Virus record (IMG/VR): IMGVR_UViG_3300042534_000747
DNA length: 64,000 nucleotides
Strand: one strand, 5' to 3'
Source: a virus
Part shown: one piece after another, positions 14,423-60,257 of the stretch
How positions within the stretch are numbered: the first letter of the stretch is position 1
How the letters are laid out: every line of letters begins with the position of its first letter
Program-made: the position numbers and the translations under genes
Notes under the pieces: model-generated
Databases searched by the model: none
Seen by the model: only the letters and a program-made list of their open reading frames with translations
Told to the model about the DNA's origin: nothing

Positions 14423-15744
14423 TATATCACCATATTTGCAAGTATTTTTATTCCTTCTTCTTTTGTTGTAAATATTCTTTCAAGTTGCATTTCAAATAAT
14501 TCATCTTTGATTTTGCCTATTTCTTTACCTTTGAATCCAAATACAAGTATATCATGACCATTTAGCAAAGGTTTTTCTACTTCCATAAGATTTTTGAAAT
14601 CTTGCTTTATCCATTCTATTCTATTAAGGTCAAGTTTTCTCATAGATATATCTGCTATGTGAAGTGCAAATAGACTATTCCAATGCTCATGTTCAAAAAG
14701 TTGCCTTCTTTTTCCAGTACGCATATTTTCAAAATTATGCATCTTCATGTGGTTTTTTATCACGAATTTTGCTTTATTTATTAATTCATTAGATAGTTTG
14801 AAATTTCTAAATATTTTTTCAACTTCTTCAGCACCTATATTATCATGATTGTGAAATGAAGTGCCTACTTGTGTAAATCTTTTACCATCATCATGAAATA
14901 GTGTTATTAGACATAGGTCAAAATCTATTTCTATATCTATAAAATTTTGGATTGATTCAGTTATGAATTTAAGGCAAAGCATATCATGATTAAATAAAGT
15001 TATTTCAGGGTGATGAAGTGGATTCTGTTCAATTGATTTGTGCATTTCTATTTCAGGAAATATTTTAGGAAGTAGATTGAACTCATCAAGTAATTGAACT
15101 GTCCTGAAAGCATTTATACTAAACATTATTTCTAATTCTTTCATGATTCTTTCAATGCTGACTTCAGTGAGGTCTACATGTTTTAATGCTTCTCCTAGAT
15201 TCTCTTCTATAACCATTCCATCTATAAGGGCAAATCTGATAGCTCTCAAAGCTCTCAAAGAGTCCTCTGCTAAACGTTCAACTGGATTGCCTACTGCACG
15301 TATTACACGGTTTTCTATATCTTTTACACCATCAAATAGGTCTATTATTTCACCATCTGCATTCATCAAAATTGTATTTATTGTAAAATCACGTCTACTG
15401 ACATCTTCTTTTATATCAGTTGTAAATTCAACACCTTTAAAATCTTCAATATTGGATTTTTCACCTTTTTTAAGTTTTATTGCGCCACAATGTCTACCTT
15501 TTACAATATCTTTTCTCATTGTGGTTATTTCTACAAAACCTGCATCAGAAGTCTTTATAACAAGTGTACCAAATTTTTCACCAAGATTATGATGGATAGG
15601 CACTAATTTTTTAACTTCAGTTGGTGTAAGTGGAGTTACAACATCCCAATCTTTGATAGGCAAGTTCAGCAATTTATTTCTAATTGCACCACCTACAACA
15701 AAACTATTGGTTTTTTGGAGTAATTCATTAAGAGTTATTGACAT
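14422..15744 (-). CDS. cca: class II CCA-adding tRNA nucleotidyltransferase with HD domain
   Basis: VGGAIR, DWD, RRDFTIN, EDSLR, HD domain (LFHDDGK); ATG 15744 behind SD. Confidence 0.88.
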   Translation of the reverse strand: MSITLNELLQKTNSFVVGGAIRNKLLNLPIKDWDVVTPLTPTEVKKLVPIHHNLGEKFGTLVIKTSDAGFVEITTMRKDIVKGRHCGAIKLKKGEKSNIEDFKGVEFTTDIKEDVSRRDFTINTILMNADGEIIDLFDGVKDIENRVIRAVGNPVERLAEDSLRALRAIRFALIDGMVIEENLGEALKHVDLTEVSIERIMKELEIMFSINAFRTVQLLDEFNLLPKIFPEIEMHKSIEQNPLHHPEITLFNHDMLCLKFITESIQNFIDIEIDFDLCLITLFHDDGKRFTQVGTSFHNHDNIGAEEVEKIFRNFKLSNELINKAKFVIKNHMKMHNFENMRTGKRRQLFEHEHWNSLFALHIADISMRKLDLNRIEWIKQDFKNLMEVEKPLLNGHDILVFGFKGKEIGKIKDELFEMQLERIFTTKEEGIKILANMVI

Positions 15745-19371: not shown

Positions 19372-21000
19372 TTATTCCCATCTGTTATTATTTGCTCTTC
19401 CATCTTTGAATATTTCAGTTGTTTCCTTTTTTGATTTTTTGAATGTATCAGTCATTTCTTTGTAGTGTGTGGATATTACATCTTGATATGTGCCTGTCAG
19501 GTATGAATGTTGTTGGTCATGATTTGAATGGCTAATGTGAGCATATTCATGAGATAGTTTGTTAAATAGGTAATGACCTAGTTCAAATGCATTGCCTGTC
19601 TTGTTAATCATTTCAGGATTGATGAGCAGATATACTTTATTATTGATATATTCCATTTGAGCTTGTGTTTCACTCTTTACATATTTTTTTGTTTCATCAT
19701 CAATGTTTCTGGTATAAAGAAGTCCTACACCTATATCATCTGTGTATCCTCTAATTTCCATGAATTGTAAGAGAATATTTCTCCAATAATGCAGTATTGT
19801 TTGTGGTTTTTTTGCAAATACGTCTTTTGGCACTTTTTTGTAATTTTCAACCTTTACAACAAATTCAAAACCAAATGGTGAGTGCATGATGAGGTCTTTT
19901 TGAACAAATGAATCTCTAAGTTCATCAATGTTTACTTCAGGATGTGTTATAATTTCAATTTCATTATTTTCAATTGCTTCCTGTTCAATTCTCTGATTTT
20001 CTTCTCTGATTTTTGTTGCAATTGCAGATGCAATACAATAATCAAAAGTTGTACCTTCATTTGTTGAATTTTCATCAACTATTTGTTCAATTTCAGATTC
20101 AGGAATTATATCTGCAAACATGTTTTTCAATGTTTGTTTGATTGTTTCACCCTTATATGTATTTACAAATGATGAAGTTTGTTTATCAAATACTGTAACA
20201 GGATTTACAATAACTTGCCTGTAAAGTTTTTGATATTCCCTATCATAACTCCATTTCAAAGATTCCCTACTGGATGTAAGGATAGTAGTGCTGTCTTTTG
20301 TGAGGTCAAGAATTGTTGTAATGGAAGAATCATCAAGACCTTCATAAAACATGGCAACTCCATGCACTCTAATAATCATCATGCCATTATTTTGCTTTTT
20401 CTTGATTTGTACATTAGCCCAATCAAGTTCACGCTTTGCACCTCTTTTGTCCATCTGTTCAAGAATTACATCATTAAGAGTGATTGTTGCTTTTGTAGTG
20501 CAAAGTGATACAAAAAATCTAATTTCAGAAATCCATGATGGTGCAGACATTCCTTCATCATATTTTATTTCTATTTTAGTGCCTTTTGGATGATTACCAT
20601 TATCGTAACCAATTGGTTGATTACCAAGCATTTCAGATGTAAGGTAGTATTGAGTTTTTCCATCCATACAAGTTGTTATACTCCATGATTCCCATGTGAA
20701 AAAGAGTACTTCCTTTGCCTTTCCAAAACCACCAACTGCATCAGGTGAATCCTTATGTGAACCACCTAGAGTCAAAAGTTTGTTGAGAAGGATATCTTCA
20801 TTCATCCCTCTACCATCATCAATAAGGGTAATGGTGCGTGATTCAGAATTAATTTCAATGTTGATGTTTTTTGCACCTGCATCAACACTATTTTGGATTG
20901 CTTCACGAATCCAGATAAAACGAATGTCATTTGAGTATTCATTTCTGGATTTTGCAAAGTATGAGTTGTCAAATTTTATTGTTGCTATTTCGCCTGCCAT
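19372..21000 (-). CDS. GHKL (HATPase_c) ATPase with C-terminal HExxH motif
   Basis: EAIQNSVDA, DDGRGM, GGFGKAK, GTKI; SHEYAH near C-terminus. Confidence 0.8.
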   Translation of the reverse strand: MAGEIATIKFDNSYFAKSRNEYSNDIRFIWIREAIQNSVDAGAKNINIEINSESRTITLIDDGRGMNEDILLNKLLTLGGSHKDSPDAVGGFGKAKEVLFFTWESWSITTCMDGKTQYYLTSEMLGNQPIGYDNGNHPKGTKIEIKYDEGMSAPSWISEIRFFVSLCTTKATITLNDVILEQMDKRGAKRELDWANVQIKKKQNNGMMIIRVHGVAMFYEGLDDSSITTILDLTKDSTTILTSSRESLKWSYDREYQKLYRQVIVNPVTVFDKQTSSFVNTYKGETIKQTLKNMFADIIPESEIEQIVDENSTNEGTTFDYCIASAIATKIREENQRIEQEAIENNEIEIITHPEVNIDELRDSFVQKDLIMHSPFGFEFVVKVENYKKVPKDVFAKKPQTILHYWRNILLQFMEIRGYTDDIGVGLLYTRNIDDETKKYVKSETQAQMEYINNKVYLLINPEMINKTGNAFELGHYLFNKLSHEYAHISHSNHDQQHSYLTGTYQDVISTHYKEMTDTFKKSKKETTEIFKDGRANNNRWE

Positions 21001-22397: not shown

Positions 22398-22955
22398 ATG
22401 AAAACTGAAGCATTTTATGTTGAAAGAATTAGAGAACTTGAAGATGAAAACGTACTTCTTGCTAAAAAATTGAAAGTAGTTCAGGCAAATATTAAGCATG
22501 TTGAAGCAGAAAGTTGGAAAGGTAAGGATTCACCTACAATTAATAGTTTCAATGGTTACTATATTTTTACAGAACATCGTAAGGATAAGTTCACTAATGA
22601 AGTAAAGGATATTAATCATAAAATTCAGAATGAAACTGTAAAAAAGATATATGATATAATTAAGAAACATGTTAATTATAGATGTGACATTGCAGGATAT
22701 AAATTTGATAATGCACATGCTCCTTTGATTTTTGATGTTGGAGCAAGGGATTTATGGATTGAACTAATTGATGAATATAAGATTCGTGTTGAATTGGATG
22801 CTTTTAATGGTGGTCAGAATAGAAATAAGTATTATTTCCCATTGTACTATTACCCTCTGAAGATTCTGGAAAGCAAGGGTGTTATTGAGTATGAAGGATA
22901 TGGTAGAATTAGACTTCTAGAAACAAATTATAAAATTTATAGTGGTAATAATTAA
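22398..22955 (+). CDS. hypothetical protein
   Basis: 185-aa ORF. Confidence 0.7.
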   Translation: MKTEAFYVERIRELEDENVLLAKKLKVVQANIKHVEAESWKGKDSPTINSFNGYYIFTEHRKDKFTNEVKDINHKIQNETVKKIYDIIKKHVNYRCDIAGYKFDNAHAPLIFDVGARDLWIELIDEYKIRVELDAFNGGQNRNKYYFPLYYYPLKILESKGVIEYEGYGRIRLLETNYKIYSGNN

Positions 22956-23853: not shown

Positions 23854-24099
23854 TCACAATCTCATAGTCCATCTATTTTCACAATTTATACATATTCTCA
23901 TAATATGCATTTTTGAACCAATTCCTGAAAAATATCTTCCACCATATTGAACATTTTTAAAATTTGAACTGTTTCCACATTTCAAACATTTTCTCGGACT
24001 TTGATTTTGAAGTTCTATTGAATTTGTAATTTCTTCTATAATTTTATTACGTTCTTCAAGTAATGCTTTTTTTTCTTCATTTGTTAAATTATTATTCAT
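23854..24099 (-). CDS. zinc-ribbon protein, paralog of 22968..23210
   Basis: C-x2-C-x28-C-x2-C-x3-W. Confidence 0.7.
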   Translation of the reverse strand: MNNNLTNEEKKALLEERNKIIEEITNSIELQNQSPRKCLKCGNSSNFKNVQYGGRYFSGIGSKMHIMRICINCENRWTMRL

Positions 24100-24206
24100 A
24101 ATTTATATTATGATATAGTTTTAGATTAATTATAGTATATAAATATTTTTACAATTAAATTAAAAAAATTATAAATACTTATTTATTGTAAGTTTATTGG
24201 TGATTT

Positions 24207-24483
24207 TTGATTAATTATAAAATTTTTGGTTTCAATTTAAGTAGAGATTATGAAGGAAATTTTTATGGTGATGGAACATATGAAACAAAATATTTAGTGA
24301 TTCTTAGACATGATTCTTCAGATAAAAATATAGTTAAAGCATTAAGGGATATTGGATTTTTTTAGAAAAGGAATACATTCTACTAATTATAAAATAAGCG
24401 GTGATACTGAAAAATCGTTGATAATTAAATCTGCTAAGAGTGGAATGTTTATATGTGAATTAAGAAAAATAAATGATTATTAG
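24207..24483 (+). pseudogene. frameshifted paralog of 32449..32715 (not in ORF track)
   Basis: GGTGA SD, TTG start, GGA TTT TTT TAG at T7 run 24357-24363; +1 frame continues RKGIHS...FICELRKINDY*. Confidence 0.6.
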
Positions 24484-26717
24484 TCATTTATTTCTATACC
24501 TTTTTCTTCAAAGTACATATTTCTTGCATCAATGATGCTTGTTTTTGAAGGCAACTCATTATTTAGCATTTTTTGTCTACACCATCCATAAAAATAATTA
24601 TCGAATGCAGTATATAATTTGCTTTCATGTGGCTTGCCATTCTTCAGTACTATATCGAATGCACCACGAAGGTTTTTCCATGTATTATAGAAATGTCCTT
24701 TTGTTTTGGTCATGAAGCCTGTTGCATCTTCAATCACAAAACCTTCAACATATTCATTATTGTATTTGTAATTTTCAGAATTGACTTCATTATATAGTTC
24801 AAGGAAATCTTCTATATTGTCTACTGTATAGCAAAGTTCCTTTACTTCAATACCTAATTCATTGCCTAATTTTTGAACTTCATCATATGGAAGTTTTTCA
24901 TATTCAAATGTCCTTCTAACTAGGTCAAGTAAGATGATTTTTGGTTTTGAGTATTCAATTATATGAGGGTCTTTTTCAGGATGAATAACTTCAAAAATTG
25001 CACTAGTATTATTTATTTTATTATAATTTTTGAGAAATTCACGCTTTTCTTCTGTAACGGAATCATTGAATATTTCTTCAAATGTAAGTGCATAATTACC
25101 TGCATTATTTGAATATTCTTTTGCATCATATGATTTTGATGAAATGAATAGTTTGTCAAATTCACTGTTGTAACCTATAATTCCTAAAAATCCATTATAT
25201 TTTAGGTAGAATTTTACAGGGAACTGTAGATTCTTAATTAATTGTGAAAGTTGCACTTCAGGTATATTTCTCTGGTCTACATTGAAGAATTTTTCATATG
25301 AACGTGATACTATTTCAAGTGTACTAAGATTTATGAAAAGTCCTCTTGCTTTGATTGTCTGACTATTCCATTTATTGTTTCTAAATACTGAACTGGTAAA
25401 ATTATATGATATAACATTATCAGATAGAGCACGTTTATTAATATTGTTATTTGAATTTAACAAATTAATTATTTCATTATAAGATTTATTTAATGGTAAT
25501 TCAGTTCTTTTTTCATAAACCTTAAATACTGTATTTTTGATTTCAATAGGTGTGAAACCTGTGGAATCTAGTGTAAGGCATCTGAGATTACCACCTGATT
25601 CAATTTCATGGTTCAGATTGAAACATCTGTCATTGATTTGAATAGGGTCAAGTAATTTGTTTCTATGTCCGTGTACCTGATATGTATCATTAGGAGAATG
25701 CTTCATGAAGGCATTATTTACAATATTCATATCATCATACATACCAACTCCACGAATCATCTCATGGCAAGCTATGAAAGCTATGTTTTCAGGCATCTTA
25801 GAGATTCCTGCATGGGTTACAATTACATTTTTGTCATGGAATTTGTAATATAGGCATGGATAGAGCTTGCGATAGAACATTCTTGCATCTTTCTTTGTGA
25901 ATCCTGCATTAACAAGTTGATGAACTGTTTTATGCATAAATTCTTTAGATGCATATCTTGTTTCTGTTTCATTTGAATATCCCCAATTTTTCAAATGAAT
26001 TTCATGATTACCTTCAAGCATAACTACATTAGGCATGTTGATAATGCTTTTTAGGAAATTCATTACTTCACCATTTTCAATACCTCTATCAATATAGTCA
26101 CCTACAAAAATATAAAATTCATTAGGGTCAATTCCATTTTTGAGGTATTCCTGAAGAACTGTATTGCATCCATGAATATCTCCAATGTGATGAATTTTTT
26201 TGTAATTTGAAAGGTCTGTGATTTTGGTTTTAAATGTTTCATTAAAATCTTCAGGTTTAATTACAGTTACAAATGATTGTGGTTCAAGAACTTCAAACCT
26301 TGCATTCATCTTTTCAAGTACATCTTCAGGTACAAATTTATATTCTTCTCTATTTTTGTTTCTACGCTTTACTTCTTCAAGAGGTATGTCTGTAAAATCA
26401 AGTGCATAAACTCTATATTTGTATTTATCAGTGAGATTTTTGTATTTTTTGTAATCTTGGGTTCTGGAATGTGTAGCATCAATAATAATGAATTCTCCAC
26501 GTTCCATACGCTTTTCTACAAGCTCCATTATGAGTTTCCATACATAATTATCATTAAATTGAGAAATTCCATCTGTGCCATCAGGCATCTGTATAGGTGA
26601 CTGAACTAAAAGTCTAATAGAGTCTGCACTAATGGTATATTTTTCAAGATTATTATTTTTTAGGAAAGTGGATTTTCCACATCCTGCTATTCCTCTCATG
26701 AGTACTAAATTTTTCAT
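24480..26717 (-). CDS. trifunctional RNA repair enzyme: polynucleotide kinase + metallophosphoesterase + Rnl1-like RNA ligase
   Basis: P-loop GIAGCGKST, IDAT; GDIHG/GDYIDRG/GNHE; ARGLF...SRSYEKFFN, KYNG, EGFV, KTK; ATG 26717 behind GGTGA. Confidence 0.88.
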   Translation of the reverse strand: MKNLVLMRGIAGCGKSTFLKNNNLEKYTISADSIRLLVQSPIQMPDGTDGISQFNDNYVWKLIMELVEKRMERGEFIIIDATHSRTQDYKKYKNLTDKYKYRVYALDFTDIPLEEVKRRNKNREEYKFVPEDVLEKMNARFEVLEPQSFVTVIKPEDFNETFKTKITDLSNYKKIHHIGDIHGCNTVLQEYLKNGIDPNEFYIFVGDYIDRGIENGEVMNFLKSIINMPNVVMLEGNHEIHLKNWGYSNETETRYASKEFMHKTVHQLVNAGFTKKDARMFYRKLYPCLYYKFHDKNVIVTHAGISKMPENIAFIACHEMIRGVGMYDDMNIVNNAFMKHSPNDTYQVHGHRNKLLDPIQINDRCFNLNHEIESGGNLRCLTLDSTGFTPIEIKNTVFKVYEKRTELPLNKSYNEIINLLNSNNNINKRALSDNVISYNFTSSVFRNNKWNSQTIKARGLFINLSTLEIVSRSYEKFFNVDQRNIPEVQLSQLIKNLQFPVKFYLKYNGFLGIIGYNSEFDKLFISSKSYDAKEYSNNAGNYALTFEEIFNDSVTEEKREFLKNYNKINNTSAIFEVIHPEKDPHIIEYSKPKIILLDLVRRTFEYEKLPYDEVQKLGNELGIEVKELCYTVDNIEDFLELYNEVNSENYKYNNEYVEGFVIEDATGFMTKTKGHFYNTWKNLRGAFDIVLKNGKPHESKLYTAFDNYFYGWCRQKMLNNELPSKTSIIDARNMYFEEKGIEIND

Positions 26718-26764
26718 TTTTTCACCATTGATTAAACAATGGTTGTAATGATATTTAAAAGTAT

Positions 26765-26801
26765 GCAAAAAAAAGAAATTAATGAAGCCATTTTGCTTCA
26801 A
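26765..26801 (-). terminator. hairpin plus oligo-T terminator closing the array transcript
   Basis: TGAAGC/GCTTCA stem (26783-26800) then TTTCTTTTTTTT on minus strand. Confidence 0.6.
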
Positions 26802-26809
26802 TGTAGCCA

Positions 26810-27126
26810 GTCACAATTCAACATTGTTGGAATAATGTATTGTAACACCAGACAACAAAATAAGAAATATCAAAAGAAGCATAAGTCACAATTCAACATA
26901 TTTGAAATGTTGTATGACAACTAATCCATTCAAAAGAAGAAGAAGTTATATGTTAACATCACAATTCAACATTGTTGGAATGTTGTATTGTAACATTTAG
27001 TATGAGTCCTGATTGTCACAATTCAACATTGTTGGAGTGTTGTATGACAACTCTATTCTTGGTAATGTTGCATGAGCAGTATTATGTGTGTCACAATTCA
27101 ACATTGTTGGAGTGTTGTATGGCAAC
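26810..27126 (-). CRISPR. mini CRISPR array, 5 x 37-nt repeats, 4 spacers (38, 36, 20, 38 nt)
   Basis: repeats at 26810, 26885, 26958, 27015, 27090; plus-strand consensus GTCACAATTCAACATTGTTGGAGTGTTGTATGACAAC with CAACAT/RTGTTG stem; orientation inferred from flanking promoter and terminator. Confidence 0.92.
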
Positions 27127-27285
27127 ACTGTAATGTATATTGTTTTTATTTATACAACATTTAGTTGATGTTGATTCTTGAATCATTGATTTCCTAATGG
27201 AACATCTCAAACAAGCTCACCCCATATGTGCTACGGTGTATATGATTATTAATTATTTGAATTGTACTTGGTTATCGTACAAGTC
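27127..27285 (-). ncRNA. putative structured leader / tracr-like scaffold
   Basis: anti-repeat-like ATACAACAT-N7-ATGTTGATT (27152-27176); hairpins TGATTC/GAATCA and TTGTAC/GTACAA. Confidence 0.45.
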
Positions 27286-27303
27286 ATATAATGTACGTTA
27301 TCA

Positions 27304-27316
27304 TATATAAATGTTC
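27304..27316 (-). promoter_or_regulatory. BRE/TATA promoter of the leader-array transcript
   Basis: GAACATTTATATA, matching the element's promoter consensus. Confidence 0.7.
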
Positions 27317-27342
27317 TGTAAGAAAAGAAATCTTGTATTTAT

Positions 27343-27360
27343 AAAGAAAAAAATAAAAAT
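27343..27360 (-). terminator. oligo-T terminator directly after tnpB
   Basis: ATTTTTATTTTTTTCTTT on minus strand. Confidence 0.6.
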
Positions 27361-28566
27361 TCAACAAGAAATAGGTGCTGAATTTTTGATATTGATTGCT
27401 GCATTAATATCTCTATCATGAGTTGTATTACATGATGTGCATGTCCATTCTCTGATATTTAATCCCATTTTAGCAGTTTTTGTCCCACATACATTACAGA
27501 TGTGAGATGTTGCTTTCCATTGGTCTACTTCAATGACTGTTTTGCCTTCATATTCTGCTTTATATCGGAGTTGTCTGAAAAATTCACTCCATGATACATC
27601 TGCAATTGCTTTTGAAAGTTTTGGATTTTGCATCATTCCTTTTATGTTGAGGGTTTCAATTGCAATACAGTCATAGTTAGTTACTAATTCTTTTGAAATG
27701 TTGTGTTGGAAATCAGAACGTTGATTTGCAATTTTCTCATGGCAAGATGCAATAATTTTATTTTGTTTATGCCAATTATTTGAAAATTTTTGTTTTCTTG
27801 ATGCTCTACGTTGTAGTTTTGCAAGTTTCTTTTGTGAGGAAACAAAATATCTATTATTATCTATTTTTTTGCCATCTGAAAGAATTGCAAAATGAGTTAA
27901 TCCCATATCAATACCTATTGTGGTAGAATCGTTGTAGGGTATTTTTGGCATTTCAGGTAATCCATCTTCTACAAGAATTGAAATATAATATTTTCCTGAA
28001 GATGTTTTTGAAATTGTAGATGTTTTAATTAAATATTGGTCTGAAATTTTGAAGGTTTCACCATTATCATATGAAATCCAACATTTATTTTTAGATTGTT
28101 TAATTACATCAAAATTAGAATTTTCAAATTTTCTATGTAATCTACATTCAATTAGAGTTTTTAATTTTGGAATATTTATATATCCAGTTTTGAAGTTAAT
28201 TGAATAATTTTGATAAAATTGAAATGAATTACCTGATTTTTTATTTTTAAATTGAGGATATCCTACATCTATACCCTTTTTTTGCCCTCTAAAGAAATTT
28301 TTATATGCTGTATCAAGGTTACGCAATGTATATATTAAGCTTCCTGAACTAGCTTCTGAAATAAAAGGGTATTGTTCTTTCCATACACTGCTAATTAAAT
28401 CTTGACAATCTGATGGAAACATTGATTGATGTGCATTTTGATACATGAATGAACATGTATGCAATGATTTATTCCAAATGAATCTACAACAATCAAAATT
28501 TATTTTGAAAAATTCCTTCTGTTCTTCAGTTGGATAAATTCTATATTTATATGCTTTTAGTACCAT
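27361..28566 (-). CDS. tnpB: IS200/IS605-family TnpB RNA-guided nuclease (CRISPR-adjacent, Cas12f-like size)
   Basis: KAYKYRIYP HTH; RuvC GIDMG / IAIETL / DRDINAAINI intact; Zn finger CNVC...CTSC; 401 aa. Confidence 0.92.
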   Translation of the reverse strand: MVLKAYKYRIYPTEEQKEFFKINFDCCRFIWNKSLHTCSFMYQNAHQSMFPSDCQDLISSVWKEQYPFISEASSGSLIYTLRNLDTAYKNFFRGQKKGIDVGYPQFKNKKSGNSFQFYQNYSINFKTGYINIPKLKTLIECRLHRKFENSNFDVIKQSKNKCWISYDNGETFKISDQYLIKTSTISKTSSGKYYISILVEDGLPEMPKIPYNDSTTIGIDMGLTHFAILSDGKKIDNNRYFVSSQKKLAKLQRRASRKQKFSNNWHKQNKIIASCHEKIANQRSDFQHNISKELVTNYDCIAIETLNIKGMMQNPKLSKAIADVSWSEFFRQLRYKAEYEGKTVIEVDQWKATSHICNVCGTKTAKMGLNIREWTCTSCNTTHDRDINAAINIKNSAPISC

Positions 28567-28597
28567 ATTTTAACCTGTGAATGTTATAGGTCAATTA

Positions 28598-28639
28598 ATG
28601 GTTGTTCTAATATTTAAATGTTTGTTAAAAAAGAAAAAA
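28598..28639 (-). promoter_or_regulatory. native promoter of tnpB
   Basis: 41 of 42 nt identical to 53093-53134. Confidence 0.8.
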
Positions 28640-28686
28640 AGAAAATTGAGTAACAAATGGATTATTATGGTATTGCAACCAATAAC

Positions 28687-28965
28687 TTACTGTAAATTTT
28701 CCCAATTATTTAATAATTCCTTTGCTTTTTTATCATTTGTAGTTCTTACAAAATCTAAAACTTCACTTAAATAAGGTTGTGTTCCATTATATATAATGAA
28801 ATAATGTACTCTTCTATCAATACGATTTATTTTTTCCATTTTGGTATAATATCTCAAAACATGAATTTTTCCTTTAAATGTTTTAAAATATTCTTTCATC
28901 ATAGAACCATTTGACATTACAGCACTTAATTGAGTTTGTTTTGATTTAACCATATTTTCATACAT
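28687..28965 (-). CDS. hypothetical protein
   Basis: 92-aa ORF. Confidence 0.6.
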   Translation of the reverse strand: MYENMVKSKQTQLSAVMSNGSMMKEYFKTFKGKIHVLRYYTKMEKINRIDRRVHYFIIYNGTQPYLSEVLDFVRTTNDKKAKELLNNWENLQ

Positions 28966-29012
28966 GTATATATAAATAATATTACTATATATAAAGATTT
29001 TTAGAATCTGTA

Positions 29013-29267
29013 TTAATTAATTTTTTCTACGGATTCAGGTTCGTAATCAATGTTTGTGAGTTTGGCAAAATTATTGGATAAATTGGCAAAACCATCTAAA
29101 TTTGATAGATTGCAACCTCTGAGCATATTGTAAGAGATATGTTCAGCTATTTCTTCAGGTGTTTCTAAATTGTAGAAGGTATTTTTCCAATCTTCATCTA
29201 TTTGTTCAAATACTTCAGGGGAAATTTCAAGGTCTGCTGTTATCATAAATTCAATTTTAAATTTCAT
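29013..29267 (-). CDS. acidic hypothetical protein
   Basis: 84-aa ORF in operon. Confidence 0.65.
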   Translation of the reverse strand: MKFKIEFMITADLEISPEVFEQIDEDWKNTFYNLETPEEIAEHISYNMLRGCNLSNLDGFANLSNNFAKLTNIDYEPESVEKIN

Positions 29268-29480
29268 TTAATATTCTACTCCTTTTAGTAAAAATGTTTT
29301 TTTGCAATTAGGGCATTCAATTTCAGAATTTTCTATTTCGTTCCATTTGTTGTTAAAAATGCAATATGAAAAGAATCCTTCAGTATCAAAATCTTCATCT
29401 TTTGCTAAATCAATATCATGTTTACAATTTGGACATTCTACATCTAATGACCAATATAAAGTTGCAGTTGCTTTTTTCAT
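29268..29480 (-). CDS. zinc-ribbon protein
   Basis: two CPNC motifs. Confidence 0.7.
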   Translation of the reverse strand: MKKATATLYWSLDVECPNCKHDIDLAKDEDFDTEGFFSYCIFNNKWNEIENSEIECPNCKKTFLLKGVEY

Positions 29481-29482
29481 AA

Positions 29483-29668
29483 TTATCTGTAATTCAAATT
29501 ATGGATTTCTTTTAGAAGTTTGTCATTTATGGCAGTTGTAATGTCAAAAATATTAAATATTTCTTTTCCATCTACCATTACTACGCCATCATAGCATACT
29601 ACTACATCAATATCGCCTGATACAGTAGTTGAATAAAAAGAAGTTTCACCATCTATCATATTAATCAC
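29483..29668 (-). CDS. hypothetical protein
   Basis: 61-aa ORF. Confidence 0.55.
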   Translation of the reverse strand: MINMIDGETSFYSTTVSGDIDVVVCYDGVVMVDGKEIFNIFDITTAINDKLLKEIHNLNYR

Positions 29669-29957
29669 ATTTTTTCATTTTTTCAAATTCTGCCATTTTT
29701 TCAATATTTTTACAAAGATAATGATTGCAATTAAAGCATTCTGGTAATGAATCTATTGGTTGTGAGCAATGTCCACAAATAGGAATATTCCATTTATCTG
29801 AACATGCCATTTTTGACATTAGATTATAATCTATTGTTTGTACGTCTGATAACATTGTGGTTACAGCAGGGCATTTTTCATATCCTAAATCAAGTTTCTT
29901 TTTTGAGCATTGACCATTTTTTTTGAGGTTAGAGCATATTTTCAACATAATAATCAT
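29661..29957 (-). CDS. Cys-rich protein
   Basis: multiple Cys including CGHC, CFNC. Confidence 0.6.
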   Translation of the reverse strand: MIIMLKICSNLKKNGQCSKKKLDLGYEKCPAVTTMLSDVQTIDYNLMSKMACSDKWNIPICGHCSQPIDSLPECFNCNHYLCKNIEKMAEFEKMKKCD

Positions 29958-30059
29958 TCAATGAATGGTTATTATTATATTTAAATGTAATTGATAATAT
30001 AGGCAATTAGTAATTAAAAAAGCAAATGTTTTTATAATATCAATACATTATTATGAATA

Positions 30060-32013: not shown

Positions 32014-32292
32014 TTATTCAGAAATTTGCACATGATTGAAAATGCTATTTGCTGTTTTCTGATAATCTTCTTCAGATTCATCAAGTGATTCACTATAATC
32101 ACAAACATATTCCCATACCATGTTTTGTATGTCATTTGCATTTTCAACATTTATATTTGTGTATTTTTCATCTATCAAATCTTCTATTTTTTCAAGAATT
32201 GTATCAATGATTCCTACAGCTTCTTCTTCTTTACCGTTAAAGTCTCCAATTGTATCAATTTGTGTTTCTTTGAAGTATTTCATATTATTCAC
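32014..32292 (-). CDS. acidic hypothetical protein
   Basis: ORF; ATG probably 32283. Confidence 0.6.
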   Translation of the reverse strand: MNNMKYFKETQIDTIGDFNGKEEEAVGIIDTILEKIEDLIDEKYTNINVENANDIQNMVWEYVCDYSESLDESEEDYQKTANSIFNHVQISE

Positions 32293-32448
32293 CTACAATA
32301 TATCTTACGTGCCAATATTATATATAGTTTTGGCAAAATAGACGGATGTTTTGGCAATATTGTTTTTATTTAATGTTTGTTTTAAAAATGTTTATATAGT
32401 ATGCAGTATTATTATAATTAATAGTAAATAAAATAAAAATGTGATAAA

Positions 32449-32918: not shown

Positions 32919-33716
32919 ATGTTTAATAAAAACGAGTTAATAAATATAATAGAAGATGAAATTAAATTATTTGAAGATTATGAATATTTTTATCCTACAA
33001 TTAGAGAATATAATAAAAAAATTATATTATATCTCGATGAAGGGTATAATTTTAGTGAAGCTCATAAAATCATTCTTAATGATATAGAAAATATCATGAG
33101 AGCATCACAACCATCAATTGAAAGAATAATTCAGGATACTGGTAAAAATATGGAACAAGCAAGAAAAACAATTGCAGGTTTGAATTTTCAAAGAATTGTT
33201 GCTTATTCATTAATGAATAATGTATTGTATGATAATATACCAGAAGTAGTTATTATGGTTGGGAAAAAGAGAGTGGAATTTAAAGATTTCATTAAAAGAC
33301 ATTTAACAATATTTGTAGGGGATGGAATACAAAAACCTGATAGTGATATCTTAATTTTCAATCCAAATAAAGAAGATACACCAATTATGATAATTTCTTG
33401 TAAAACATCATTGAGAGAAAGAGCAGGACAAACATATAGATGGAAATTGCTTTATGATTTGGCAAAAACTGATTGTGAACATTATAAATGTGAAAAATCA
33501 TGTCCAAAAAATAAATATGGTGTAACTATTGATAATGATAGAGATATTATAGTTGGATTTATAACTACAGATTTTTATAATGAAATAGATAGACCACAAA
33601 ATAAAGGGATGATGGATTTTTTTGATTTTACATTTGTTGGAAAAAAAATAATAGATAAGAACAATATTAAAAGTTTAGATGGAATTGTTGACTATATCAA
33701 TAATGTTTTTAACTAA
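32919..33716 (+). CDS. BsaWI-like type II restriction endonuclease (orphan)
   Basis: PDSDILI...ISCKTSLRERAGQTYRWKL (PD-(D/E)xK with RER motif). Confidence 0.75.
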   Translation: MFNKNELINIIEDEIKLFEDYEYFYPTIREYNKKIILYLDEGYNFSEAHKIILNDIENIMRASQPSIERIIQDTGKNMEQARKTIAGLNFQRIVAYSLMNNVLYDNIPEVVIMVGKKRVEFKDFIKRHLTIFVGDGIQKPDSDILIFNPNKEDTPIMIISCKTSLRERAGQTYRWKLLYDLAKTDCEHYKCEKSCPKNKYGVTIDNDRDIIVGFITTDFYNEIDRPQNKGMMDFFDFTFVGKKIIDKNNIKSLDGIVDYINNVFN

Positions 33717-52621: not shown

Positions 52622-53062
52622 TTACATCCAGTAGGGTTTAAGGTTATCTTCTTCTTCTTTAAAATCTTCTACAAATTTTTGTAAATGTATCTCGTCTGCT
52701 TCATCATAATTAAATCTATAAAAATAATTGAATGTTGCATCATAGTATAGGTGCTTATTTTCAATTGCATTGAGGGTTTTTAAAATTGATTTTTTAATAT
52801 GGTTTATTACGGACTTTTTAAGATGTTCTTTACTGCCTTTGACTTCAATAGAAGTATGGTTAAACCAATATTTTGTTATTGTTTTAGTTTCGATATCAAT
52901 TTCAACACCATAATATATTGAATTGATTTTGGCATTAACTACAAAATTGATTGGATATTTAAGAATTTCAAAGCTGTAATCATCATAAGTAGTTTCATAA
53001 TAAATGTGCTCATATCTATCATTTTCAATGAGTTTTAGCATTTGTTTTTTAAAATTTTTCAT
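52622..53062 (-). CDS. P[YF]W paralog family
   Basis: ends KPYWM. Confidence 0.75.
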   Translation of the reverse strand: MKNFKKQMLKLIENDRYEHIYYETTYDDYSFEILKYPINFVVNAKINSIYYGVEIDIETKTITKYWFNHTSIEVKGSKEHLKKSVINHIKKSILKTLNAIENKHLYYDATFNYFYRFNYDEADEIHLQKFVEDFKEEEDNLKPYWM

Positions 53063-53134
53063 TTTTTACCTCATGTGTGAGTAATACAATATATGGTTAT
53101 TCTAATATTTAAATGTTTGTTAAAAAAGAAAAAA

Positions 53135-59765: not shown

Positions 59766-59869
59766 TAATTTATACCTACATTACAGTAATTAGTTGTTAT
59801 TATATTTAAATGTTTGCTAAAATTGGCATTATGACTTATAAAATAAAAATATAAGTAAAAAAGATAATA

Positions 59870-59942
59870 CGCCTACAACAGGGCTTGAACCTGTGACATC
59901 CTGATTAACAGTCAGGCACTCTACCAACTGAGTTATGTAAGC
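59870..59942 (-). tRNA. tRNA-Asn(GTT), no encoded CCA
   Basis: full cloverleaf; anticodon arm CCTGA-CTGTTAA-TCAGG; GGTTCAA. Confidence 0.95.
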
Positions 59943-59950
59943 ATCTTGAA

Positions 59951-60023
59951 AGCTCTTGAAGGGATTTGAACCCTCGATTTGTGGTTTACAAAACCACCGC
60001 TATAGCCACTAAGCTACAAGAGC
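59951..60023 (-). tRNA. tRNA-Thr(TGT), no encoded CCA
   Basis: GTGGT-TTTGTAA-ACCAC; GGTTCAAATCC. Confidence 0.93.
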
Positions 60024-60033
60024 ATATTTGAAA

Positions 60034-60105
60034 TTCCCTTCATACTTGCAAATTCAATATTGGGAGATTGGATAATATACATACGATACTGCAAATATGA
60101 AGGAA
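60034..60105 (-). ncRNA. 72-nt long-stem element inside tRNA operon
   Basis: 16-bp stem (2 G-U on minus strand) enclosing 39 nt. Confidence 0.45.
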
Positions 60106-60176
60106 TGCATAATAAGGGATTTGAACCCCTGCTAAATGGTTGGAAACCACTTATGCTACCATTACATCAATTATGC
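60106..60176 (-). tRNA. tRNA-Gly(TCC), A73 discriminator, no encoded CCA
   Basis: AGTGG-TTTCCAA-CCATT; GGTTCAAATCC. Confidence 0.92.
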
Positions 60177-60183
60177 AAATTTA

Positions 60184-60257
60184 CGCACCTGAAGGGATTT
60201 GAACCCCTGACCACTGGATTAAAAGTCCAACGCTCTGCCTGACTGAGCCACAGGTGC
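60184..60257 (-). tRNA. tRNA-Lys(TTT), no encoded CCA
   Basis: TTGGA-CTTTTAA-TCCAG; GGTTCAAATCC. Confidence 0.95.

What the first reader, a model, noticed from the sequence alone, without database searches (positions are those of the whole stretch)
27127..27290. Putative cis anti-repeat (tracr-like) in the leader of the array transcript
27152-27176 (ATACAACAT-TTAGTTG-ATGTTGATT) keeps the repeat's CAACAT/ATGTTG stem and 7-nt loop, but its flanks match the inverted repeat. In a minus-strand transcript, AUGUUGUAU and AAUCAACAU could pair with the repeat segments AUACAACA(U) and AUGUUGA. Further hairpins lie at 27172-27185 and 27262-27282 near the predicted start. The 14 nt invariant in all five repeats form the 3' part of the repeat in this orientation, which is the handle type V effectors keep. 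Inference: leader plus first repeat may fold into a natural single-guide scaffold.
Basis: partly seen in the sequence, partly recalled or inferred. Interest (0 to 1): 0.75.

Follow-up and report, generated by a model that had tools for sequence, protein, structure and literature searches.

The report
TnpB guide scaffold feeding a mini-array
The flagged stretch is the guide-RNA scaffold of the neighbouring small TnpB nuclease, and it lacks its last few bases, which each repeat of the adjacent five-repeat array supplies; this is a clear archaeal example of the transposon-to-CRISPR step described in 2025, not a new principle.

Summary
The exact hairpin CAACAT-N7-ATGTTG occurs three times in 64 kb: in two repeats and at 27155-27173.

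A covariance model built only from guide RNAs (omegaRNAs) of 25 homologous TnpB loci has its best window-wide hit at 27153-27236 on the minus strand (E 0.004), directly downstream of an intact 401-aa ISDra2-like tnpB. The flagged hairpin is the scaffold's stem 4.

The leader has stems 1-4 but lacks the pseudoknot strand that precedes the guide in ISDra2. Its stem-1 loop, GCACA, is complementary in register to UGUG-AC, which ends every repeat. Relatives show matched loop/terminus pairs (GGAAC:GUUC, GGACA:UGUC, GGAGC:GCUC).

So the invariant repeat 3' part (AUGUUGA-AU-UGUG-A, then C or U) is the stem-4 3' strand plus the pseudoknot strand. Leader AAUCAACAU (27168-27176) and CACA (27227-27230) are the two anti-repeats.

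The unit has its own archaeal promoter and terminator. No cas1, cas2, cas4, cas6 or tnpA was found in the window. A 156-nt contig from an RNA library joins scaffold and repeat 1.

Function, targets and repeat origin are untested. The locus is TranC-like, and this scan has noted the same kind in at least 10 other genomes.

The parts
27361..28566 (-). tnpB, 401 aa, ISDra2-like RNA-guided nuclease. The RuvC D220/E304/D386 residues and the CxxC...CxxC zinc finger are present.
   Evidence: Pfam OrfB_IS605, Cas12f1-like_TNB and HTH_OrfB_IS605. Alignment A1 shows the invariant residues. Best PDB matches by sequence are an AI-designed RNA-guided nuclease (9YYG, E 2.3e-77), then ISDra2 TnpB 8BF8/8H1J (E 2.6e-61). 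The nearest natural relative is 46% identical.
28605..28625 (-). Archaeal-type BRE/TATA promoter of tnpB (AACAAACATTTAAATA), of the element's own promoter class
   Evidence: Upstream regions of 91 minus-strand ORFs share this motif plus a GGTG ribosome site. The tnpB copy is nearly identical to the one upstream of ORF 52622-53062.
27343..27360 (-). Oligo-T tract right after the tnpB stop codon, probably a terminator that separates tnpB from the guide unit
   Evidence: Sequence reading. Inference from archaeal oligo-T termination.
27304..27318 (-). Separate BRE/TATA promoter of the leader-array unit (CAGAACATTTATATA; TATA box 27304-27311). Predicted start is near 27281.
   Evidence: Matches the element's promoter consensus. 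The start site is inferred from the usual archaeal TATA-to-start distance, not mapped.
27262..27282 (-). 5' hairpin UUGUAC-N9-GUACAA at the predicted transcript start
   Evidence: RNAfold. No counterpart in the homolog model.
27153..27236 (-). omegaRNA-derived scaffold (tracr-like)
   Evidence: Best hit of covariance model R1, which was built from 25 homolog omegaRNAs without the window: 17.7 bits, E 0.0039, model positions 6-93 of 99, whole window, both strands, filters off. The core is 70% identical to a Methanosarcinales omegaRNA.
27222..27236 (-). Stem 1 (CCGUA / UAUGG) with loop GCACA (27227-27231). CACA at 27227-27230 is anti-repeat 1, the pseudoknot partner of the repeat end UGUG.
   Evidence: MFE fold. 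CM alignment places it on the homologs' GGAAC loop. ISDra2 pseudoknot geometry. Covariation in homologs.
27177..27215 (-). Stem 2 (CUUG 27212-27215 with CAAG 27177-27180) enclosing stem 3 (27188-27206)
   Evidence: This helix is 99% paired in homologs, with 3 covarying pairs. The window carries the U-A variant seen in 6 of 25 homologs.
27152..27176 (-). Stem 4 hairpin, the flagged element. The 5' strand AAUCAACAU (27168-27176) is anti-repeat 2. The loop is 27161-27167 and the 3' strand AUGUUGUAU is 27152-27160.
   Evidence: Aligned to the terminal hairpin of the model. With only stems 1 and 2 fixed, the MFE pairs 27168-27174 with AUGUUGA of repeat 1.
27127..27151 (-). A-rich linker. It sits where relatives have the terminal GUUCAC motif and the guide, but it contains no UGUG, so the leader alone cannot form the pseudoknot.
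   Evidence: The CM hit stops at model position 93 of 99. Alignment A3.
26810..27126 (-). Array of five 37-nt repeats (R1 27090-27126, R2 27015-27051, R3 26958-26994, R4 26885-26921, R5 26810-26846) and four spacers (27052-27089, 26995-27014, 26922-26957, 26847-26884). Each repeat ends AUGUUGA-AU-UGUG-A followed by C (U in R3).
   Evidence: Spacers are mutually unrelated. R5 is the most degenerate repeat and lies farthest from the leader.
26767..26809 (-). Trailing sequence after R5, a possible fifth guide, with hairpin GAAGC-N5-GCUUC and a T8 run: probably the terminator of the unit
   Evidence: Sequence reading. The next promoter, for the RNA ligase gene, follows.
27076..27230 (.). Stretch covered without mismatch by one stand-alone 156-nt contig from a metatranscriptome library of another study. 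It covers the scaffold from the stem-1 loop, the linker, all of R1 and 14 nt of spacer 1.
   Evidence: Run X3, record 15, depth 11.4, 0 other letters, no loose end. A contig shows neither strand nor true ends.

Best explanation
The interval is the guide-RNA scaffold of the adjacent TnpB. It is an ISDra2-type omegaRNA that no longer overlaps the gene. It has its own archaeal promoter and runs into a five-repeat array.

The scaffold keeps stem 1, stem 2, stem 3 and a complete stem 4, which is the flagged hairpin. It has lost the roughly six nucleotides that in ISDra2 lie between stem 4 and the guide and form the pseudoknot with the stem-1 loop.

Those nucleotides (UGUG-AC), preceded by a copy of the stem-4 3' strand (AUGUUGA), end every repeat, directly 5' of each spacer.

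Proposed mechanism: a repeat-spacer unit docks on the scaffold through two contacts. The first is repeat UGUG with the stem-1 loop CACA (27227-27230), which corresponds to the ISDra2 pseudoknot and to Cas12f repeat:anti-repeat 1. The second is repeat AUGUUGAAU with leader AAUCAACAU (27168-27176), which corresponds to stem 4 and to Cas12f repeat:anti-repeat 2. This rebuilds a full omegaRNA with the spacer in the guide position.

For repeat 1 and spacer 1 this can happen in cis on the primary transcript, giving a natural single guide. For the later units it would need the scaffold in trans, in a tracrRNA-like way.

Shown: homology of the leader to omegaRNAs; its position and strand; the missing terminal motif; both complementarities, in the ISDra2 register; and the conserved 3' part of the repeats.

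Inferred: transcription start, processing, which of two stem-4 conformations forms, trans use of spacers 2-5, nuclease activity, and the biological role. The role is probably conflict with competing mobile elements or viruses.
For: 1. Tails of 64 homologous tnpB loci share the pattern stem 1 - GCCUGUGGA - variable hairpin - GAAGCAGGAAGC - GC hairpin - GGUAGUUCAC|guide. The window's leader reads the same way.

2. CM R1, built without the window, has its top hit in 128 kb searched at 27153-27236 on the minus strand: 17.7 bits, E 0.0039, at the expected place and strand. It stops at model position 93 of 99.

3. The core is 70% identical to the omegaRNA of locus L011. Bona fide omegaRNAs are 58-80% identical to each other.

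4. The window's TnpB is ISDra2-like (E 2.6e-61 to 8BF8/8H1J).

5. In ISDra2, nucleotides -6 to -2 pair with the stem-1 loop. Stem 4 is the natural junction between the tracr-like and crRNA-like parts. The pseudoknot and stem 4 correspond to Cas12f R:AR1 and R:AR2 (PMC10097598).

6. Across homologs, loop and terminus covary: GGAAC:GUUC in most, GGACA:UGUC in L011, GGAGC:GCUC in L046. The helix is 85% paired and 2 of 4 pairs change on both sides.

7. The window's loop is GCACA, and all five repeats end UGUG-A then C (U in R3). That gives four Watson-Crick pairs in the same register, with the conserved loop G and -2 A kept. The composition-based chance is about 0.002. The leader's own tail has no UGUG.

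8. The exact stem-4 hairpin is shared only by the leader and the repeats.

9. With only stems 1 and 2 fixed, the MFE (-32.2 kcal/mol) pairs leader UCAACAU with AUGUUGA of R1. Local hairpins give -29.3 and the full strand swap -31.3.

10. Repeat variation lies in the 5' 22 nt, 9 positions against 1 in the last 15.

11. The unit has its own BRE/TATA promoter, an oligo-T tract before it and a hairpin plus T8 after it.

12. A 156-nt contig from an RNA library covers 27076-27230 and bridges the scaffold/R1 junction.
Against: - There is no functional data.
- The locus is a singleton. The best TnpB relative is 46% identical, and no related array was found. Covariation therefore comes from comparing the window with distant relatives, not from within its own lineage.
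- The leader still has both strands of stem 4, and each repeat has its own full hairpin, so the strand-swapped pairing is not required. The three modelled conformations differ by at most 3 kcal/mol.
- Each repeat can fold alone (-5 to -12 kcal/mol) with its 5' end pairing to UGUGAC, which would compete with the pseudoknot.
- The leader-repeat duplex energy is only in the best 1-5% of window segments.
- In R1 and R2 the C variant breaks the closing pair of the hairpin on the minus strand but gives a G-U pair on the plus strand. This is a small point in favour of the other strand.
- The RNA-library contig cannot show strand or ends and could come from DNA in the library.
- No spacer has a target in the collections searched.
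Confidence: 0.6

Rival explanations
1. The guide is tracr-independent. Each repeat, a self-contained 37-nt hairpin, is the whole guide handle, as in Cas12a-type crRNAs. The leader scaffold is a decaying relic of the omegaRNA that is merely co-transcribed.
For: Repeats fold alone, with an outer stem (GUUACAAU:AUUGUGAC), an inner stem and a 7-nt loop, at -5 to -12 kcal/mol. Nakagawa et al. propose palindromic repeats as condensed, duplicated omegaRNA modules. The leader tail is degenerate and A-rich.
Against: ISDra2-type TnpB contacts stems 1-3 extensively through its RuvC domain, and this protein is of that type and size. The leader keeps stems 1-3 at the conservation level of working omegaRNAs. 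It has its own promoter. Its stem-1 loop matches the repeat end in register, which a relic would not be expected to keep.
Confidence: 0.13
2. The hairpin is a decayed sixth repeat in direct orientation, or a chance look-alike. It has no pairing role, and the leader is an ordinary CRISPR leader.
For: It has the same stem and loop length as the repeats. Its distance to R1 (56 nt, hairpin start to hairpin start) resembles the R2-R3 spacing of 57. The loop shares CAAC with the repeat loop when shifted by two bases.
Against: In the direct register the flanks match the repeat at chance level, 5-6 of 18. The 5' flank is the conserved omegaRNA motif CAAGAA, and the hairpin lies exactly where the model and all relatives have stem 4. 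Chance is excluded. An ancestral stem 4 from which the repeats derive remains compatible with the main explanation.
Confidence: 0.1
3. The array is a virus-borne mini-array that uses the host's class 1 (Cas6-processed) CRISPR system. It lies next to tnpB by coincidence or by capture, and any match to the scaffold is secondary.
For: It is a 37-nt palindromic repeat starting GUU and ending AUUGUGAC. From my own recall, not tested here, this resembles the AUUGAAAC/G handles of archaeal type I and III repeats. No cas genes occur among 94 ORFs of the window. Other agents of this scan (e1-5878570, e1-5840392) reported TnpB loci with arrays captured from host systems.
Against: Stem-4 identity and the in-register pseudoknot match tie the repeat to this scaffold. 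They share one promoter-terminator unit. No array with this repeat was found in JGI metagenome contigs, where all six hits were simple tandem repeats. None was found in IMG/VR or in about 404 sampled genomes of one archaeal phylum. Capture followed by adaptation of the scaffold would still make the leader an anti-repeat.
Confidence: 0.08
4. This is an ordinary mobile IS605/IS1341 element. The leader is its normal omegaRNA guiding to the flank, and the downstream repeats are unrelated tandem DNA.
For: The protein is a typical TnpB in domain content and size. omegaRNA homology is present.
Against: The scaffold lacks the terminal pseudoknot strand. It is detached from the gene by an oligo-T tract and a promoter of the element's own class. 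tnpB also has a native-type promoter. No tnpA and no second copy of tnpB were found in the window.
Confidence: 0.04

Closest known systems
TranC, transposon-CRISPR intermediates (Jin et al., Cell 2025;188:6283). I know this paper only through PMC13565253, PMC13639567 and bioRxiv 10.64898/2026.03.27.714800. The group includes the phage-borne CauTranC9: 414 aa, 38-bp repeats, 5 repeats.
   Same: A TnpB-sized effector without expanded domains. A short array downstream with 37-38-nt repeats. A tracr-like RNA derived from the transposon guide RNA and encoded between the gene and the array. No adaptation genes. Carried by a virus-like element.
   Different: The nearest natural protein is 46% identical, and LaTranC aligns only over the C-terminal 120 residues. 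Clade membership was not tested. The carrier is an archaeal-type element. The scaffold still has a complete stem 4 and is contiguous with the array in one promoter-terminator unit, so the split is incomplete. No activity, PAM/TAM or targets are known.
ISDra2 TnpB omegaRNA (cryo-EM, Nakagawa et al. 2023, PMC10097598; PDB 8H1J)
   Same: The protein is closely related by sequence. Stems 1-4 are present. The pseudoknot forms between the stem-1 loop and the nucleotides just 5' of the guide, with the loop G and the -2 A kept. The stem-4 loop is the junction between the tracr-like and crRNA-like parts.
   Different: In ISDra2 the RNA is one piece that overlaps the tnpB 3' end and ends at the transposon right end with one guide. 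Here the pseudoknot strand is absent from the scaffold and present five times in repeats. The RNA also has its own promoter.
Cas12f (type V-F) tracrRNA:crRNA
   Same: Two repeat:anti-repeat contacts, R:AR1 as the pseudoknot and R:AR2 as a stem. The tracr lies between the effector gene and the array.
   Different: Cas12f is larger, has expanded REC and WED domains and works as a dimer. Its repeats are not palindromic copies of a scaffold hairpin. PADLOC Cas12f and Cas12u4 models hit this protein, but those models also cover ordinary TnpBs.
Type V-U* candidate systems, and arrays formed by serial duplication of omegaRNA segments (Altae-Tran et al. 2023, PMC10691335)
   Same: The array lies downstream of the gene where the omegaRNA lies. 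Arrays are short. There are no cas1, cas2 or cas4 genes. The proposed origin is from omegaRNA segments.
   Different: That paper gives no pairing model for such a locus. Whether this protein falls in one of the V-U6 to V-U45 branches was not tested.

Membership tests
IS200/IS605-family TnpB (protein) | OrfB_IS605 RuvC core, C-terminal zinc-ribbon (TNB) domain and N-terminal HTH | tested here: met
   Pfam E-values are 2.4e-27, 1.5e-23 and 3.9e-17.
IS200/IS605-family TnpB (protein) | RuvC catalytic D/E/D triad and CxxC...CxxC zinc finger intact | tested here: met
   D220, E304, D386, C357, C360, C376 and C379 fall in invariant columns of A1.
IS200/IS605-family TnpB (protein) | Part of a mobile IS, with tnpA or defined left and right ends and multiple copies | tested here: not met
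   No Y1 or serine transposase among 94 ORFs. There is a single tnpB in the window. The gene and the RNA each have a native-type promoter. The rest of the roughly 200-kb record could not be searched.
ISDra2-type omegaRNA | Encoded at or after the tnpB 3' end on the same strand, with stems 1 and 2 in the family's covarying register | tested here: met
   The CM R1 top hit is 27153-27236 on the minus strand, E 0.0039.
ISDra2-type omegaRNA | Contiguous pseudoknot strand (-6 to -2) after stem 4, followed directly by the guide | tested here: not met
   The hit ends at model position 93 of 99. The leader tail UAUAAAUAAAAAC has no complement of loop CACA. The strand is found only at the repeat ends.
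tracrRNA of type V (Cas12f/TranC-like) | Encoded between the effector gene and the array, with anti-repeat(s) complementary to the repeat | tested here: met
   CACA:UGUG gives 4 Watson-Crick pairs in the ISDra2 register. AAUCAACAU:AUGUUGAAU gives 8 of 9 pairs.
tracrRNA of type V (Cas12f/TranC-like) | A separate RNA species that acts in trans and is needed for activity | not testable with these tools
   Only a contig from an RNA library links the scaffold to R1 in cis. No end mapping or assay was possible.
CRISPR array | Three or more direct repeats with unique spacers of similar length | tested here: met
   Five repeats. Spacers are 38, 20, 36 and 38 nt and are mutually unrelated; the best pair has p 0.02 before correction for 15 comparisons. 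One spacer is short.
CRISPR array | Spacers match foreign DNA, and an adaptation module is present | tested here: not met
   No spacer match in phage or plasmid collections, IMG/VR or the window itself. No cas1, cas2 or cas4 in the window.
TranC | [quoted passage not shown] | tested here: inconclusive
   The sequence anatomy fits. The functional split is not shown, and the scaffold is still joined to the array.
TranC | Placement in a published TranC clade by phylogeny | not tested
   The clade sequences were not at hand. LaTranC (9JFO) matches only residues 272-394, E 4.9e-30.

The most novel reading that the evidence does not exclude
This is an independent and very recent origin of a type V-like system from an ISDra2-type TnpB on a large archaeal virus-like element, caught before the RNA split is complete. 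On this reading the repeats arose by serial duplication of the omegaRNA's stem-4-plus-pseudoknot module. The first guide is used in cis as a natural single guide RNA. The later guides use the same scaffold in trans. At 401 aa it would be among the smallest array-using nucleases.
Probability: 0.3. Interest if true: 0.65.

Novelty: new member of a known kind. Interest (0 to 1): 0.45.

Why it matters
This locus shows in one readable stretch how a transposon guide RNA can become a tracrRNA plus CRISPR repeats. The scaffold keeps everything except the pseudoknot strand, and the repeats carry exactly that strand plus the stem-4 strand. The matched changes relative to transposon relatives give a precise, testable pairing model with two short anti-repeats at known coordinates.

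The system is very compact, with a 401-aa protein, and comes from an archaeal-type element in sediment, a poorly sampled setting for such systems. If active, it would add an ISDra2-like, array-programmable nuclease.

It does not change the picture drawn by the TranC work of 2025, and this scan has met similar loci on phages.

Tried and rejected
- Rfam scan of 24000-30000 at E <= 1: no family matched.
- No whole genome is held for the window, so the rest of the record could not be searched. A look-up of the called protein's contig found nothing.
- My first pseudoknot guess paired GUGGAC, just after stem 2, with GUUCAC. It showed no covariation. I dropped it once the ISDra2 paper gave the true partner, the stem-1 loop.
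- I tested whether the array grew by tandem duplication that left similar spacers. Only S3 and S4 share a 10-mer (p 0.02 among 15 comparisons), which is not significant.
- Spacer targets: blastn of the whole unit against phages and plasmids gave E >= 0.2 only. The window itself gave nothing for S1-S5. Exact 20-mers of S1-S4 were absent from IMG/VR.
- Repeat elsewhere: the 29-nt and two-copy patterns were absent from IMG/VR. Six JGI metagenome hits were all simple tandem repeats. Two sampled searches fell in the same archaeal phylum, about 404 genomes in all, and gave two single chance hits. The repeat was not found in the genomes searched. Methanobacteriales, Methanococcales, Thermoplasmatota, DPANN and Asgard genomes were not searched.
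- Sequencing runs: in RNA run X3 no other full-identity contig lay on 26300-28900. This cannot be used as evidence that only the guide is expressed. X3 record 14 (a 19-nt exact piece plus a 30-nt piece with 4 differences, in a different order) was set aside as probably unrelated. RNA run X2 has low-depth contigs on tnpB, on the ligase gene and on 26739-26889, which may be DNA carry-over.
- The hairpin at 27172-27185 was rejected as a separate element because it overlaps the conserved CAAG strand of stem 2.

Full report
**What is there.** The window is 24-30% G+C. On its minus strand lies a 401-aa ORF, 27361-28566. It has the three TnpB Pfam domains and all catalytic and zinc-finger residues. 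Its best PDB match by sequence is an AI-designed RNA-guided nuclease (9YYG, E 2.3e-77), followed by ISDra2 TnpB (8BF8/8H1J, E 2.6e-61). Its best natural relative among 5.8 billion proteins is only 46% identical. About 235 nt downstream, on the same strand, five 37-nt repeats begin. Their spacers are 38, 20, 36 and 38 nt. The flagged interval, 27127-27290, is the space between gene and array.

**The observation.** The sequence at 27152-27176 is as described. The exact hairpin CAACAT-N7-ATGTTG occurs three times in 64 kb: in repeats 3 and 4 and at 27155-27173. It is therefore related to the repeats, not a chance look-alike. The 14 invariant repeat bases are ATGTTGAATTGTGA at the 3' side on the minus strand. 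Variation lies in the 5' 22 nt, 9 positions against 1 (p 0.028). The claim that the flanks match the inverted repeat is weak: 9-10 of 18 against 5-6 of 18 (p about 0.02). Overall duplex energy with the repeats is only in the best 1-5% of window segments.

**What the leader is.** I fetched 80 loci that encode relatives of the TnpB and read the DNA after the conserved HDRDINAA motif. Most loci show one architecture: a short hairpin, GCCUGUGGA, a variable hairpin, GAAGCAGGAAGC, a G+C-rich hairpin, then GGUAGUUCAC followed by unrelated flank. This is the omegaRNA ending at the transposon right end. The window's leader reads the same way and is closest to a Methanosarcinales locus, L011. The core is 70% identical, within the 58-80% range seen among true omegaRNAs.

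A covariance model built from 25 of these RNAs, without the window, was run over the whole window on both strands with filters off. Its best hit is 27153-27236 on the minus strand: 17.7 bits, E 0.0039, model positions 6-93 of 99. The flagged hairpin aligns to the model's terminal hairpin. The last six model positions (GUUCAC) have no match. In the homolog alignment, stem 1 and the long-range stem are supported by covariation, and the window fits both.

**The missing piece is in the repeats.** The cryo-EM paper on ISDra2 TnpB (PMC10097598) makes four relevant points:
- The scaffold has four stems and a pseudoknot.
- The pseudoknot is formed by nucleotides -6 to -2, just 5' of the guide, with the loop of stem 1.
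- The loop of stem 4 is the natural junction of a tracr-like and a crRNA-like part.
- The pseudoknot and stem 4 correspond to repeat:anti-repeat 1 and 2 of Cas12f.

In the homologs, the stem-1 loop GGAAC pairs with the terminal GUUC. L011 has GGACA with UGUC, and L046 has GGAGC with GCUC. These are matched changes.

The window's stem 1 is CCGUA/UAUGG with loop GCACA (27227-27231). Its complement in the ISDra2 register is UGUG followed by A. All five repeats end UGUG-A, then C (U in repeat 3), and that end directly abuts the spacer. By base composition the chance of this is about 0.002. The leader's own tail has no such sequence.

The invariant repeat 3' part therefore reads AUGUUGA (stem-4 3' strand), AU, UGUG (pseudoknot strand), A, then C/U. 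This is the crRNA-like module of an omegaRNA. The leader provides the two partners: CACA at 27227-27230, and AAUCAACAU at 27168-27176. The latter is the 5' strand of the flagged hairpin and gives 8 of 9 pairs with AUGUUGAAU.

**Folding.** I folded the RNA 27240 to 27072 with only the two conserved stems fixed. The minimum-energy structure (-32.2 kcal/mol) pairs leader UCAACAU with AUGUUGA of repeat 1, which puts UGUGAC and spacer 1 right after a stem-4-like helix. The differences are small, so thermodynamics allows the model but does not prove it.

**Transcription unit.** The element uses archaeal promoters (AACAAACATTTATATA, then a GGTG ribosome site), as seen upstream of dozens of ORFs. tnpB has one of these promoters. 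After its stop codon comes an oligo-T tract and then a second promoter of the same class, with the TATA box at 27304-27311. This predicts a start near 27281. After repeat 5 come a hairpin, a T8 run and the next gene's promoter. The guide unit is thus separate from the gene, unlike a transposon omegaRNA. No tnpA, cas1, cas2, cas4 or cas6 was found among 94 ORFs of the window.

**RNA data.** The DNA comes from a sediment metagenome. A metatranscriptome library from another study (mine drainage) holds one stand-alone 156-nt contig, of which 155 nt lie without mismatch on 27076-27230. That span covers the scaffold from the stem-1 loop, the linker, all of repeat 1 and 14 nt of spacer 1. It passes through the 33 nt that repeats 1 and 2 share without a break. 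A contig shows neither strand nor true ends, and RNA libraries can hold DNA. I therefore count this as a weak-to-moderate hint that scaffold and first repeat sit on one RNA.

**Open points.**
- Origin of the repeats. They may derive from duplication of the stem-4-plus-pseudoknot module, or from a captured host array to which the scaffold adapted. No array with this repeat was found in the collections I could search, but several archaeal phyla were not searched.
- Spacers. They are mutually unrelated and have no targets in the collections searched.
- Spacers 2-5. How they would reach a scaffold is unknown.

**Comparison and novelty.** A TnpB-sized effector with a short downstream array and a tracr-like RNA derived from the transposon guide RNA is what was published as TranC (Jin et al. 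2025). I know that work through PMC13565253, PMC13639567 and a 2026 preprint. The preprint describes a 414-aa phage-borne member with 38-bp repeats and five repeats. Altae-Tran et al. 2023 had proposed arrays arising from omegaRNA segments.

Other agents of this scan reported similar loci in at least 10 other genomes, including a pseudoknot/repeat-end covariation on a phage. I did not check those.

This locus is therefore a new member of a known kind. Its particular points are:
- the archaeal-type carrier;
- an ISDra2-like protein with no close relative;
- a scaffold that is complete except for the pseudoknot strand and still contiguous with the array.

Noticed in passing
window 22423-22484 (+): Second-best hit of the omegaRNA model: 14.8 bits, E 0.025. 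It has a stem-1-like hairpin, a terminal hairpin and GUAGUUCAG, but 41 central model positions are missing. It lies inside ORF 22398-22955, which matches no family. It could be a decayed right end of another IS, or chance.
   Followed up: no
window 24480-26717 (-), 14425-15744 (-), 59869-60257 (-): RNA-repair and tRNA set. It comprises a fused P-loop kinase, phosphoesterase and T4-type RNA ligase; a CCA-adding or poly(A) polymerase-type enzyme; a PTH2 peptidyl-tRNA hydrolase (ORF not located); and four tRNA genes (Asn, Thr, Gly, Lys). This looks like a counter-measure to tRNA-cleaving defence.
   Followed up: partly
window, upstream of most minus-strand ORFs; examples 28605-28625 and 53093-53134: A very uniform archaeal promoter: T-run, AACAAACATTTA(A/T)ATA, about 25 nt, then (A)GGTGA before ATG. 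The tnpB promoter is almost identical to that of ORF 52622-53062.
   Followed up: partly
window 32357-32372 (-): A 16-nt exact copy of the leader linker TAAATAAAAACAATAT. It is A/T-rich, and my rough estimate of the chance is about 0.07. It lies just upstream of the promoter of ORF 32014-32283.
   Followed up: no
window 32919-33716 (+): An ORF with a BsaWI-type restriction endonuclease domain, also hit by a PADLOC type II REase model.
   Followed up: no
window 28030-28125 (-), TnpB residues about 150-180: An insertion of about 30 aa relative to most relatives. A similar one is present in the metagenomic TnpBs P0008 and P0011, which have ordinary gene-overlapping omegaRNA tails.
   Followed up: no
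window 26922-26957 and 26847-26884: Spacers 3 and 4 share the 10-mer CTTCTTTTGA. This is not significant after correction for 15 comparisons.
   Followed up: yes
window 19372-21000 (-): A 542-aa protein with a GHKL ATPase domain (HATPase_c_3). It has no PADLOC match.
   Followed up: no
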